Shown here one piece after another: positions 14,225-38,300 of a stretch of 64,000 nucleotides of DNA. The first letter of the stretch is position 1, and each line of letters opens with the position of its first letter. The DNA is taken from the NCBI RefSeq assembly GCF_009914755.1, contig NC_060947.1, one strand, 5' to 3'. The notes below the pieces were generated by a model. It saw nothing but the letters and a program-made list of their open reading frames with translations. It made no database searches and had not been told where the DNA came from. Origin of the DNA: the human T2T-CHM13v2.0 reference genome, Homo sapiens. The position numbers and the translations under genes were made by a program.

Positions 14225-17200
14225 ATGACAGGATCAGTTTCACACATAACCATACTAACTAACCTAAAATGTAAACAGGCTAAATGCCCCAATTAAAAGA
14301 CACAGAGTGGCAAATTGTATAAAGTGTCAAGACCCATTGGTGTGCTGTATTCAAGAGACCCATCTCACATGCAAAGACACACATAGGCTCAAAATAAAGG
14401 AATGGAGGAAGACTTACCAAGCAAATGGAAAGGAAAAAAAAAAAACAGGTTGCAATCCTAGTCTCAGATGAAACACACGTTAAACCAAAACAAAGATAAA
14501 AAAAGACAAAGAAGGGCATTACATAATGGTAAAGGGATTGATGCAACAAGAAGAGCTAACTATCCTAAATATATATGCACCTAATACAGGAGCACACAGA
14601 TTCATAAAGCAAGTTCTTAGAGACCTACAAAGAGAGTTAGAGTCCCACACAACAATGGTGGGAGACTTTAACACCCCAGTGTCAGTGTTAGACAGATCAA
14701 TGAGACAGAAAATTAACAAGGATATTCAGGACTTGAACTCAGCTCTGGACCAAGAGGACCTAATAGACAACTACAGAACTCACCGCCCCAAATCAATAGA
14801 ATATACATTCTTCTCAGCACCACATAGCACTTATTCTAAAGTTGACCACGTAATTGGAAGTAATACAGTCTTCAGCAAATGCAAAAGAACAGAAATCATA
14901 ACAAACAGTCTCTCGCACCACAGTGCAATCAAATTAGAAGTCAGGATTAAGAAACTCACTCAAAACCGCACAACTACATGGAAACTGAACAACATGCTCC
15001 TGAATGACTACTGGGTAAATAACAAAATGAAGGCAGAAATAAGTAAGTTCTTTGAAACCAATGAGAACAAAGACACAACATACCAGAATCTCTGGGACAC
15101 AGCTAAAGCAGTGTTTAGAGGGAAATGTATAGCACTAAATGCCCACAGGAGAAAGTGGGAAAGATCTAAAATCCACACTCTAACATCACAATTAAAAGAA
15201 CTAGAGAAGCAAGAGCAAACACATTCAAAAGCTAGTAGAAGACAAGAAATCACTAAGATCAGAGAAGAACTGAAAGAGATAGAGACACAAAAAAACCCTT
15301 CAAAAAATCAGTGAATCCAGGAGCAGGTTTTTTTGAAAAGATTAGCAAAATACATAGACCACTAGCCAGACTAATAAAGAAGAAAAGAGAGAAGAATAAA
15401 ATAGACACAATAAAAAATGATAAAGGGGATATCACCACCGATCCCACAGAAATACAAACTACTGTCAGAGAATACTATAAACACCTCTACGCAAATAAAC
15501 TAGAAAATCTAGAAGAAATGGATAAATTCCTGGACACATACACCCTCCCAAGACTAAATCAGGAAGAAGTCGAATCCCTGAATAGACCAATAACAAGTTC
15601 TGAAATTGAGGCAGTAATTAATAGCCTACCAACCGAAAAAATTCCAGGACAAGACGGATTCACAACCGAATTCTACCAGAGGTACAAAGAGGAGCTGGTA
15701 CCATTCCTTCTGAAACTATTCCAATCAATAGAAAAAGAGGGACTCCTCCCTAACTCTTTGTATGAGGCCAGCATCATCCTGATACCAAAACCTGACAGAC
15801 ACACAACAAAAAATAAAATTTCAGCCAATATCCCTGATGAACATCGATGTGGAAAGCTTCAGTAAAATACTGGCAAACTGAATCAGCAGCAAATCAAAAC
15901 ACTTATCCACCACGATCAAGTTGGCTTCATCCCTGGGATGCAGGACTGGTTCAACATATGCAAATCAATAAATGTAATCCATCACATAAACAGAACCAAT
16001 GATAAAAATCACATGATTATCTCAATAGATGCAGAAAAGGACTTTGATAAAATTCAACACTGCTTCATGCTAAAAACTCTCAATAAACTAGGTATTGATG
16101 GAACGTATCTCAAAATAATAAGAGCTGTTTATAACAAACCCACAGCCAATATCATACTCAATGGGCAAAAGTTTGAAGCACTCTTTTTGAAAACTGGCAC
16201 AAGACAAGGATGCCCTGTCTCATTACTCCTATTCAACATAGTATTGGAAGTTCTGGCTGGGGAAATCAGACAAGAGAAAGAAATAAAAGATATTCAAATA
16301 AGAATTGAGGAAGTCAAATTGTCTCTGTTTGCAGATGACATGATTGTATATTTAGAAAACCCCATCGTCTCAGCCCAAAATCTCCTTAAGCTGATAAGCA
16401 ACTTCACCAAAGTCTCAAGATACAAAATCAATGTGCAAAAATCACAAGCATTCCTCTACACCAATAATACACAAACAGACAGCCAAATCATGAGTGACCT
16501 CCCATTCACAATTGCTACAAAGAGAATAAAATACCTAGGAATCCAGCTTACAAGGGAGATGAAGGACCTCTTCAAGGAGAACCACAAACCACTGCTCAAG
16601 GAAATAAGAGAGAACACAAACAAATGAAAAAACATTCCATGCTCATGGATAGGAAGAATCAATATGGTGAAAATGGCCATACTGCCCAAAGTAATTTATA
16701 GATTCAATGCTATCCTCATCAAGCTACCATTGACTTTCTTCACAGAATTAGAAAAACTACTTTAAATTTCATACGGAACCAAGAAAGAGCACGTGTAGCC
16801 AAGACAATCCTAAGCAAAAAGAACAAAGCTGGAGACATCATGCTACCTGACTTCAAACTATACTACAAGGCTACAGTAAGCAAAACAGCATGGTACTGTT
16901 ACCAAAACAGAGATACAGACCAACAGAACAGAACACAGGCCTCAGAAATAATGCCACACATCTGCAACCATCCGATCTCTGACAAACCTGACAAAAACAA
17001 GCAATGGGGGAAGGATTCTCTATTTAATAAATGGTGCTGGGAAAACTGGCTAGCCATATGCAGAAAACTGAAACTGGACCCCTTCCTTACACCTTATACA
17101 AAAATTAACTCAAGATGAATTAAAGACTTAAATGTAAGACCTAAAATCATAAAAACCCTAGAAGAAAACCTAGGCAGTGCCATTCAGGACATAGGCATGG

Positions 17201-18059
17201 GCAAAGACTTCATGACTATAACACCAAAAGCAATGGCAACAAAAGCTAAAATTGACAAATGGGATCTAATTAAACTAAAGAGCTTCTGCACAGCAAAAGA
17301 AACTTATCATCTGAGTGAACAGGCAATCTACAGAATGGGAGAAAATTTTTGCAATCTATCTATCTGACAATGGGGTAATATCCAGAATCTACAAGGAACT
17401 TAAACAAATTTACAAGAAAAAAAAACAAACAACCCCATCAAAAAGTGGGTGAAGGATATGAACAGACACTTCTCAAAAAAAGACATTTATGCAGCCGACA
17501 AACATATTTTAAAAAGCTCATCATCACTGGTCATTAGAGAAATGCAAATAAAAACACAATGAGATACCATCTCACGCCAGTTAGAAAGACGATCATTAAA
17601 AAATCAGGAAACAACAGATGCTGGAGAGGATGTGGAGAAATGGGAATGCTTTTACACTGTTGGTGGAGTGCAAATTAGTTCAACTATTTTAGAAGAGAGT
17701 GTGACAATTCCTCAAGGATCTAGAACCAGAAATATCATTTGACTGAGCAATCCCATTACTGGGTATGTACCCAAAGGAATATAAATCATTCTACTATAAA
17801 GACACATGCACACATATGTTTACTGCAGCACTACTCACAATATCAAAGACTTGGAACCAACTCAAATGCCCATCAATGATAGACTGGATAAAGAAAATGT
17901 GGCACATATACACCATGGAATACTATGCAGCCACAAAAAAAGGATGAGTTCATGTCCTTTGCTGGGACATGGATGAAGCTGGAAACCATCATTCTCAGCA
18001 AACTAACACAGGAACAGAAAACCAAATATCACATGTTCTCACTCATAAGTGGGAGTTGA
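14225..18059 (+). pseudogene. L1 ORF2p remnant (endonuclease/reverse transcriptase, disrupted)
   Basis: Fragment ORFs 14526-15314, 15311-15865, 15938-16627 ([16 protein letters not shown]), 16840-17118 and 17765-17947, separated by frameshifts and stops. Confidence 0.92.
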
Positions 18060-18459
18060 AAAATGAGAACACATGGACACAGGGAGGGGAACATCACACA
18101 CCGGGGCCTGTCGGGGGGTGGGGGGCTAGGGGAGGGATAGCATTAGGAGAAATACCTAATGTAGATGACGGGTTGATGGGTGCAGCAAACCACCATGGCA
18201 CGTGCATACAAATTTAACAAACCTGCACGTTCTGCATATGTATCCCAGAACTTAAAGTATAATTTTAAAAAAAACTGAGAAGTAAGGGGAAGGATCCTAC
18301 AGGCAAGGCAAATGGACAAATAACCTGCTTCTGTTTTCTCCCCCTTCTCATCCATCCTGTACATTGTTGCTGTGATAATTTTCCCAACACAACAATTTCA
18401 TTCAGACTTTCAAGGGCATTCAGCTCACTCTTCAGCCTCACTTGCAAGACAATGGTACA

Positions 18460-36402: not shown

Positions 36403-36755
36403 ATCCATAAAATTCTAAAGCAAAACAAAGAAAATTAGCATAACCATTTACAGAGTGGTGGCATAACCTCAAAAAAATAAGGATACAAGTCTATTCTTGC
36501 ATACATGTAAAATTTTCTATGAGTGGGAGAGGGAGAGGGAAAGGGATGAGGAATGGGGGATGAGGGATGAGGGATGAGAGATATCATCCAGAAAGATAGG
36601 AGGAAAACATAATGTGAAGTCAAAGAAACTATTCTTTAAGCAAGAGAGAATAATCAAAACAATGAAATGCTGCCCAGAGGTCAAATAAAATGAGGAGTAT
36701 GAAACATCCATTGCACTTAGCAACACTCAGTGAGTTGATTTAAAAACATTACATG

Positions 36756-38300
36756 AGCTAATTTTTGTATAAGTTATAAGGAAAGGGTCCAGTTTCTGTA
36801 TTCTACATATGGCTAGCCAGTTTTCCCAGCACCATTTATTAAATAGGGAATCCTTTCCCCATTGCTTGTTTTTGTCAGGTTTGTCGAAGATCAGATGGTT
36901 GTAGATATGTGGTGTTATTTCTGAGGCCTCTGTTCTGTTCCATTGGTCTATATATCTGTTTTGGTAACAGTACCATGCTGTTTTGGTTACTGTAGCCTTG
37001 TAGTATAGTTTGAAGTCAGGTAGTGTGATGCCTCCAGCTTTGTTCTTTTTGCTTAGGATTGTCTTGGCTATATGGGCTCTTTTTTGGTGCCATATGAAAT
37101 CTAAAGTAGTTTTTTCTAGTTCTGTGAAGAAAGTCAATGGTAGCTTGATGGGAATAGCATTGAATCTATACATTGCTTTGGGCAGTATGGCCATTTTCAC
37201 AATATTGATTCTTCCTATCCATGAGCATGGAATGTTTTCCCATTTGTTTGTGTCCTCTCTTATTTCCTTGAGCAGTGGTTTGTGGTTCTCCTTGAAGAGG
37301 TCCTTCACATCCCTTGTAAGTTGGATTCCTAGGTATTTTATTCTCTTTGTAGCAATTGTGAATGGGAGGTCACTCATGATTTGGCTGTCTGTTTGTGTAT
37401 TATTGGTGTAGAGGAATGCTTGTGATTTTTGCACATTGATTTTGTATCCTGAGACTTTGCTGAAGTTGCTTATCAGCTTAATGAGTTTTTGGGCTCGTGA
37501 TCACTGGTCATTAGAGAAATGCAAATCAAAACCACAATGAGATACCATCTCACACCAGTTAGAATGGCGATCATTAAAAAGTCAGGAAACAACAGATGCT
37601 GGAGAGGATTTGGACAAATAGGAATGCTTTTAGACTCTTGATGGGAGTGTAATTTAGTTCAACCATTGTGGAAGACAGTTTGGCGATTCCTCCAGGATCT
37701 AGAACCAGAAATACCATTTGACCCAGCAATATCACTACTGGGTATATACCCAAAGGATTATAAATCATTCTACTATAAAGATACATGCACACGTATCTTT
37801 ACTGCGGCACTATTCACAATAGCAAAGACTTGGAACCAACCCAAATGCCCATCAATGATAGACTGGATAAAGAAAATGTGGCACATATACACCATGAAAT
37901 ACTATGCAGCCCTAAAAAAGGATGAGTTCATGTCCTTTGCTGGGACATGGATGAAGCTGGAAACCATCATTCTCAGCAAACTAACACAGGAACAGAAAAC
38001 CAAACACTGCATGTTCTCACTCATAAGCAGGAGTTGAACAATTAGAACATGTGGACACAGGGAGGGGAACATCACACACCAGGGCCTGTCAGGGGGTGGG
38101 GGGCACGAGGAAGGAGAGCATTAGGACAAATACCTAATGCATGCTGGGCTTAAAACCTAGATGACGGGTTGACGGGTACAGCAAACCACCATGGTACATG
38201 TATACCTATGTAACAAACCTGCACGTTCTGCCCATGTATCTCAGAACTTAAAGTATAAATACATACATACATACATACATACATACATACATACATACAT
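36756..38300 (+). mobile_element. 5'-inverted (twin-primed) truncated LINE-1, L1PA8-like
   Basis: Inverted ORF2 segment ~36756-37497 (ORF 36727-37434, minus) joined to a sense 3' segment ~37498-38260. The tail is (ACAT)n. TSD acattacatg at 36746-36755 / 38301-38310. Confidence 0.93.

What the first reader, a model, noticed from the sequence alone, without database searches (positions are those of the whole stretch)
16419..37448. Apparent gene conversion between two oppositely oriented L1s ~20 kb apart
Seen: 16419-16545 (+) is identical over 127 bp to the reverse complement of 37322-37448, and 16560-16612 is identical over 53 bp, while neighbouring parts of the overlap differ frequently. Both copies encode [17 protein letters not shown] and WYCYQ, where I recall the L1PA consensus as RQ(T/A)ESQIMSELP, ENYKP and WYWYQ. 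Their 3'UTRs differ in type (18155 'cctaatgtagatgac' vs 38133 'cctaatgcatgctgggcttaaaacctagatgac'), consistent with L1PA7 vs L1PA8. Inference: shared private mutations in patches point to ectopic conversion between inverted repeats, which are also a substrate for a ~20-kb inversion. Each element keeps its own matched TSD pair, so this haplotype is in the ancestral orientation.
Basis: partly seen in the sequence, partly recalled or inferred. Interest (0 to 1): 0.72.

Follow-up and report, generated by a model that had tools for sequence, protein, structure and literature searches.

The report
Neighbouring L1 repeats copied each other
Two old L1 repeats 20 kb apart on the human X chromosome share short identical patches with mutations found together nowhere else in the genome, most likely because one was copied onto the other during DNA repair (gene conversion), a known and likely common process with no sign of an inversion here.

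Summary
Observation confirmed. 16419-16545 equals the reverse complement of 37322-37448 over 127 bp. A 51-mer holding four rare shared variants has only these two matches genome-wide at up to 2 mismatches. The two copies are sisters in a tree of the tract but not outside it. Non-allelic gene conversion is the best explanation (~0.9).

(1) Both L1s are inserted on the + strand; only the 5'-inverted piece of the second is opposite.
(2) A second identical patch lies in DIRECT orientation (17936-18026 = 37914-38004, 91 bp, one rare shared variant), so closeness rather than inverted geometry is the likely driver.
(3) The shared WYCYQ variant may be chance (P about 0.24).
(4) TSDs match. No inversion is listed here in a 44-sample Strand-seq/assembly table or a human-chimp table.

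The pattern is not special: rare L1 variants also cluster in neighbouring copies elsewhere (6 pairs within 30 kb against 0.3-0.9 expected). Conversion between L1PA copies, also with an inversion between L1PA7s, is in print (PMC5829575). Direction, date and fixation are untested (no ape or read data). Ordinary new instance; interest 0.25.

The parts
11769..18270 (+). L1 copy A, apparently full length (about 6.5 kb), ORF2 broken by stops and frameshifts, short-type 3'UTR
   Evidence: flanked by TSDs
11756..11768 (+). left TSD of A (12 of 13 identical to right TSD)
18271..18283 (+). right TSD of A
16419..16545 (+). tract 1 in A: 127 bp identical to rc(37322-37448); rare shared variants 16456C, 16470C, 16480C, 16498C
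16560..16612 (+). tract 1b in A: 53 bp identical to rc(37255-37307); rare shared variant 16583C (94 vs 11960 genome-wide); separated from tract 1 by three A-only differences (16546, 16558, 16559)
17936..18026 (+). tract 2 in A (3'UTR): 91 bp identical to 37914-38004 in direct orientation; rare shared variant 17963T (33 vs 4372 genome-wide)
36756..37495 (-). 5'-inverted segment of L1 copy B (equivalent to A 16372-17112, 93.4% identical); makes the inverted repeat
37322..37448 (-). tract 1 in B
37255..37307 (-). tract 1b in B
37493..38300 (+). forward 3' segment of B (equivalent to A 17516-18262, 88.3% by BLAST), long-type 3'UTR (+18 bp), tail decayed to an (ATAC)n repeat; 3-bp overlap at the inversion junction and about 400 bp of L1 missing there
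37914..38004 (+). tract 2 in B
36746..36755 (+). left TSD of B (10 of 10 identical to right TSD)
38301..38310 (+). right TSD of B

Best explanation
Two independently inserted old L1 copies 20 kb apart carry short identical patches with rare shared variants, most likely made by non-crossover, non-allelic gene conversion, in which a germline break in one copy was likely repaired by copying from its neighbour. Shown: identity of the patches, rarity of the shared alleles, tree incongruence, different 3'UTR types, intact TSDs. Inferred: at least two events, one using B's 5'-inverted piece (16419-16545, probably extending patchily to 16612) and one using the directly oriented 3'UTRs (17936-18026; weaker). 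Repair by strand invasion without crossover (SDSA-type, from established knowledge) leaves flanks and TSDs unchanged. The tract-1 event is late: 0 of 127 differences gives a 95% upper bound of 2.4% against 8.2% in the flank, so it falls within about the last 30% of the pair's history, likely in the great-ape period. Donor direction is unresolved. No function is implied.
For:: the 51-mer with four rare variants has 2 matches in 3.1 Gb at <=2 mismatches, both here; of 813 candidates 40 were scored; only these two are 100%, the next is 97%; allele counts 0/26, 1/26, 2/26, 0/27 and 0/29 in copies picked without regard to the tract; outside the tracts (16613-17112) A has 22 and B 20 own differences and only 2 are shared; inside tract 1 there are 0 own and 5 shared. 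A and B are sisters in the tract tree (support 0.98) and in tract 2, but apart in 16613-17112 and in the rest of the 3' end, where B groups with L039/L058/L010/L055 (two of them, L055 and L058, were scored with the long UTR) and A with L034/L053/L038. Tract 2: 91 bp, second longest of 231 pairs, shuffle P 0.005, shared allele 33 vs 4372. Generality. Literature: PMC5829575 passages (conversion between L1PA3s; inversion plus conversion between L1PA7s); PMC6598467 and PMC8230782 passages (Alu conversion rises with proximity).
Against: No outgroup or second human haplotype was seen, so the event is inferred from one assembly. Tract 2 rests on one rare allele (chance of one such sharing about 0.20) plus a run length, and an unrelated pair (L059-B) has a longer run of 109 bp in the same region. 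Three A-only differences interrupt 16419-16612, and seven A-only against zero B-only differences lie in 16386-16627, which a single clean event followed by equal mutation explains poorly. The 20-kb distance is beyond the roughly 10 kb reported for Alu (PMC8230782, PMC6598467).
Confidence: 0.88

Rival explanations
1. The tract is the scar of an inversion that toggled: a crossover in the inverted homology inverted the 20 kb, a second one restored it, and each left a conversion tract.
For: Inverted homology of 742 bp exists. An inversion with conversion between opposite L1PA7s is documented (PMC5829575, passage). The patchy tract 1 plus 1b could be two junction scars.
Against: TSDs match. The tree of 16613-17112 keeps A and B with the same partners as their 3' ends, so there is no reciprocal swap of that piece (supports are modest). 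No inversion between chrX 141.52 and 147.87 Mb in Table S1 of PMC10150506 (44 sample columns). None of 5 chrX loci in PMC2603318 lies here. L1-mediated inversions had a median similarity of 97.1% (PMC9675761) against 93.4% here. Tract 2 in direct orientation needs no inversion.
Confidence: 0.06
2. Assembly or polishing artefact: mis-mapped reads overwrote one copy with the other.
For: The tract (127 bp) is about a short read long. Only one assembly was examined.
Against: Three separate patches in two orientations, one interrupted by three differences. Similar long runs recur between other neighbouring L1s on chrX, chr2 and chr12. Recalled, not from a call: T2T-CHM13 was built from long accurate reads that span such tracts into unique flanks.
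Confidence: 0.03
3. Shared ancestry: both copies come from one small L1 source lineage carrying these variants, or one is a retrotransposed daughter of the other.
For: Both belong to the same older group at 10 diagnostic sites, and overall identity in the overlap (93.4%) is somewhat above that to other copies (88-92%).
Against: No third copy carries the haplotype. The flanks hold 22 + 20 independent differences. The 3'UTRs differ by an 18-bp feature shared with other copies. Shared ancestry cannot give 0 of 127 differences next to 8% (P about 2e-5 at a fixed site).
Confidence: 0.02

Closest known systems
Gene conversion between L1PA LINEs in human DNA (Frith & Khan, PMC5829575: Fig 4S conversion between L1PA3s; Fig 4H inversion plus conversion between opposite L1PA7s; text passages seen, figures and their coordinates not seen)
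   Same: Sequence tract of one L1PA replaced by that of a nearby copy; old (L1PA7-age) copies can act as partners.
   Different: Here it is inferred from rare shared alleles in one assembly, with no inversion; two orientations are used by one pair because the second L1 is 5'-inverted.
Non-allelic gene conversion between neighbouring Alus (Aleshin & Zhi 2010 as cited in PMC6598467 and PMC8230782; passages seen, original not held)
   Same: Neighbours share non-diagnostic mutations; rate depends on distance; reported hotspots on sex chromosomes.
   Different: L1 rather than Alu, and 12-30 kb distances rather than under about 10 kb.
Retrotransposon-recombination-mediated inversions (Lee et al., PMC2603318; TEMR inversions, PMC9675761; passages and one table seen)
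   Same: Oppositely oriented L1 homology flanking a 20-kb interval.
   Different: The defining chimeric elements with unmatched TSDs are absent; identity is 93.4% against a median 97.1%; the locus is not in the chrX list seen.
5'-inverted (twin-primed) L1 insertion (mechanism name recalled, Ostertag & Kazazian)
   Same: Copy B: inverted 5' piece, about 400 bp missing at the junction, 3-bp junction overlap, TSD, 3' tail.
   Different: Nothing; this is the origin of the inverted homology.

Membership tests
Non-allelic gene conversion between TE copies | Local tract of identity well above background divergence | tested here: met
   127 bp, longest of 435 pairs; shuffle P 0.003
Non-allelic gene conversion between TE copies | Shared non-diagnostic (private) mutations inside the tract | tested here: met
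   four variants in 43 bp; haplotype unique to the pair
Non-allelic gene conversion between TE copies | Phylogenetic incongruence between tract and flanks | tested here: met
Non-allelic gene conversion between TE copies | Independent insertions, flanks not exchanged | tested here: met
   separate matched TSDs and different 3'UTR types
Non-allelic gene conversion between TE copies | Non-reciprocal, with donor and acceptor shown by outgroup orthologues or polymorphism | not testable with these tools
   no primate genomes or other human haplotypes held; sites within the tract did not give a direction
Retrotransposon-mediated inversion (RRMI/TEMR) | Oppositely oriented homologous TEs at both ends | tested here: met
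   742-bp inverted homology, 93.4%
Retrotransposon-mediated inversion (RRMI/TEMR) | Chimeric elements with unmatched TSDs | tested here: not met
   both TSD pairs match
Retrotransposon-mediated inversion (RRMI/TEMR) | Inverted allele seen in another haplotype or species | tested here: inconclusive
   absent from the tables seen; coordinate-string searches in two more papers' supplements found nothing but these may not hold full callsets; ape inversion tables too large to read
L1PA7 / L1PA8 subfamily labels | Best match to the subfamily 3'-end consensus | not testable with these tools
   no Dfam or Repbase available; labels are recalled. Only the 18-bp 3'UTR type difference was shown
Segmental or tandem duplication | Homology continues into flanking unique DNA | tested here: not met
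   self-BLAST hits end at the L1 boundaries

The most novel reading that the evidence does not exclude
Neighbouring L1 copies convert each other pervasively at 12-50 kb, well beyond the roughly 10 kb reported for Alu and in both orientations, and this has not been measured genome-wide. This pair, where one 5'-inverted L1 offers both inverted and direct homology 67-88 kb upstream of FMR1, would be a repeatedly used partner and a rare substrate for a 20-kb inversion or deletion. Counting rare L1 alleles shared by neighbours in T2T genomes gives a direct distance-decay test.
Probability: 0.3. Interest if true: 0.5.

Novelty: new member of a known kind. Interest (0 to 1): 0.25.

Why it matters
As a single locus it matters little: a neutral repair scar in dead repeats. 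It is a clean example that old, 8%-diverged L1s 20 kb apart still recombine. It raises identity between neighbours (a seed for later rearrangement) and distorts repeat ages and short-read variant calls. The side result, rare L1 alleles clustering in neighbouring copies, suggests a simple genome-wide assay for L1-L1 conversion and its distance range.

Tried and rejected
Sublineage marker: rejected. The first comparator set (L003-L030) was picked by similarity to the tract and so inflates the shared alleles; allele counts use L032-L060 instead.

WYCYQ (16899T) as conversion evidence: set aside. It is 1.2% genome-wide, has about a 0.24 chance of one such sharing, and sits in only a 31-bp identical run.

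Direction of transfer: sought with subfamily-type sites (16381, 16468, 16517, 16543, 16608); both copies fall in the same older group and 16543C occurs in both UTR types, so there is no answer.

Conversion with the third L1 between them (20098-24990): longest identical runs are 51 bp with A and 29 bp with B at 79-83% identity; not pursued.

Inversion records: none found at this place in PMC10150506 Table S1 (part 11 of the file read, covering chrX from 52 Mb on) or PMC2603318 Table S1 (5 chrX rows; hg18 position of this locus estimated from recalled FMR1 coordinates). String searches in supplements of PMC12350169 (one file cut, one unreadable), PMC12350158 and PMC11168930 gave nothing relevant; the main supplements of PMC12058530 were too large to read.

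Literature searches for this locus or for a genome-wide L1-neighbour conversion study showed none in the listings; the library lacks most subscription papers, so this is weak.

One neighbour pair (L075/L076, chr11) proved to be a 100% duplicate and was dropped from the enrichment count. Of 9 neighbour pairs aligned, 5 (130, 122, 93, 80, 61 bp) did not exceed the non-neighbour maximum, including the one inverted pair 21.6 kb apart on chr1.
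Full report
1. Observation. The 127 bases at 16419-16545 equal the reverse complement of 37322-37448. They lie in a 742-column inverted match, 16372-17112 vs 36754-37495, at 93.4% identity. A second identical run of 53 bp (16560-16612) follows after three differences. Shuffling the differences gives a run of 127 or more with P = 0.003, whether positions are uniform or weighted by site variability.

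2. Anatomy. Copy A is an apparently full-length L1 on the + strand, about 11769-18270, with a 13-bp TSD (12 of 13 identical) and a broken ORF2. Copy B is also a + strand insertion, 36756-38300, with a 10-bp exact TSD. Its 5' 740 bp are inverted; its 3' 770 bp are direct (88% to A 17516-18262), with about 400 bp missing and a 3-bp overlap at the junction. That is the structure of a 5'-inverted L1 (twin priming; name recalled). So the pair offers both inverted and direct homology. B has an 18-bp longer 3'UTR, seen also in L055 and L058. The homology ends at the L1 borders, so this is not a segmental duplication. The L1PA7/8 labels are recalled and untested.

3. Are the shared variants private? 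Against 29 copies chosen by similarity to A's downstream part (L032-L060), the alleles 16456C, 16470C, 16480C, 16498C and 16583C occur in 0/26, 1/26, 2/26, 0/27 and 0/29. Genome-wide, the motif with 16470C has 15 matches against 6376 for the common form (the two motifs also differ at the polymorphic site 16468), and that with 16583C has 94 against 11960. The 51-mer spanning the first four has two matches at up to 2 mismatches, both in this pair. In a group of 30 older-type copies, tract distance A-B is 0 against a median 9.4% and minimum 2.4% (405 pairs). Outside, in 16613-17112, it is 8.2%, with 22 A-only, 20 B-only and 2 shared differences. Trees put A and B together in the tract (support 0.98) and apart outside it. 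This excludes a shared source lineage and parent-daughter retrotransposition.

4. A second patch. In the directly oriented 3'UTRs, 17936-18026 equals 37914-38004 over 91 bp and holds a shared allele, 17963T, found in 0 of 29 comparators and 33 vs 4372 times genome-wide. The shuffle P is 0.005, but an unrelated pair has a 109-bp run in that region, and one shared rare allele alone has about a 0.20 chance. I take it as likely, not certain. It weakens the idea that inverted geometry drives the exchange.

5. Mechanism. Inferred: a germline break in one L1 was repaired by invading the neighbour and copying about 130-200 bp without crossover; this happened at least once in inverted and probably once in direct orientation. 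Zero differences in 127 bp bound post-event divergence at 2.4% (95%); 3 in 194 gives 1.5%, against 8.2% in the flank. So the event is late in the pair's history, likely within the great apes (calibration recalled). Unexplained: seven A-only and no B-only differences in 16386-16627, which fits patchy or repeated conversion better than one clean event. Direction could not be set.

6. Inversion. Both TSD pairs match, which by the criterion of Lee et al. (PMC2603318, passage) marks the ancestral state. Table S1 of PMC10150506 lists no inversion between chrX 141.52 and 147.87 Mb. None of the 5 chrX rows of PMC2603318 lies here. String searches of supplements of PMC12350169, PMC12350158 and PMC11168930 found nothing relevant, and the ape tables of PMC12058530 were unreadable, so ape inversions remain unchecked. 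Known L1-mediated inversions had a median 97.1% similarity (PMC9675761, passage); this pair has 93.4%.

7. How special? The lists of rare-allele carriers themselves cluster. Among all 94 carriers and the first 100 of 148, leaving out this pair and one exact duplicate (L075/L076), 6 pairs lie within 30 kb against 0.3-0.9 expected from a chr1 control of 100 positions inflated 1- to 3-fold (P about 4e-4 at the most cautious setting; two chrX pairs share a member). Aligning 9 neighbour pairs, 4 had identical runs of 165-252 bp, longer than any of 82 non-neighbour pairs (maximum 136; Mann-Whitney P 6e-4); 5 did not. The control is rough and only about 1.2-1.4 kb per locus was seen, so older local duplications are not fully excluded. 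Still, neighbour conversion among L1s looks common.

8. What is known. Frith & Khan (PMC5829575; passages) show conversion between L1PA3s and an inversion with conversion between opposite L1PA7s; I could not see that figure's coordinates, but matched TSDs and make it unlikely to be this locus. Fawcett & Innan (PMC6598467; parts 1-2 of 4 read) and Doronina et al. (PMC8230782; passages) review Alu conversion within about 10 kb and on sex chromosomes. My searches (listings only) showed no paper on this locus or a genome-wide L1-neighbour survey, in a library lacking most subscription papers.

9. Verdict. A real, well-supported instance of non-allelic gene conversion between L1 neighbours (0.88): a new member of a known kind, with no evidence for an inversion or a function. 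Interest 0.25; the general distance-range question would merit about 0.5 if it proves unpublished.

Noticed in passing
window 19990-24990: The U6 pseudogene (19990-20095) is fused directly to an older L1 that begins at the ORF1 end (20098, 82% to A 14007-14306) and runs to 24990: it looks like a U6-L1 chimera with an unusually long L1 part. No clear TSD was found. The L1 is interrupted by an LTR-like insert (about 20410-21745, with 24- and 41-bp internal repeats; LTR12-like by recall) and lacks about 1 kb, replaced by a 27-bp tandem array (23897-24241).
   Followed up: partly
window 24238-24243 and 37493: The 3' segments of the third L1 and of copy B both resume at nearly the same L1 position (A-equivalent 17511 and 17516), and their upstream pieces stop or start near A 16372-16500; probably coincidence, unexplained.
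   Followed up: no
L071-L074 (G000:C23:146.51-146.61 Mb): Four younger L1s 400-530 kb downstream share the same rare ENHKP allele; L072-L074 (21-47 kb apart) share identical runs of 130-252 bp: a likely local conversion network.
   Followed up: partly
L075/L076 (G000:C11:19.02 and 19.05 Mb): Two stretches 22,150 bp apart are 100% identical over 1201 bp: a very recent tandem duplication.
   Followed up: partly
L083/L084 (C2:14.52-14.53 Mb) and L077/L078 (C12:61.38-61.40 Mb): Neighbouring direct L1 pairs 12.7 and 15.4 kb apart with identical runs of 227 and 165 bp; likely further conversion tracts.
   Followed up: partly
window 46379-47778 vs 58855-60328; 48873-49168, 50125-50501, 58098-58500, 2557-2916: Other old dispersed repeats with inverted and direct matches at 67-80% identity in the self-comparison; not examined.
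   Followed up: no
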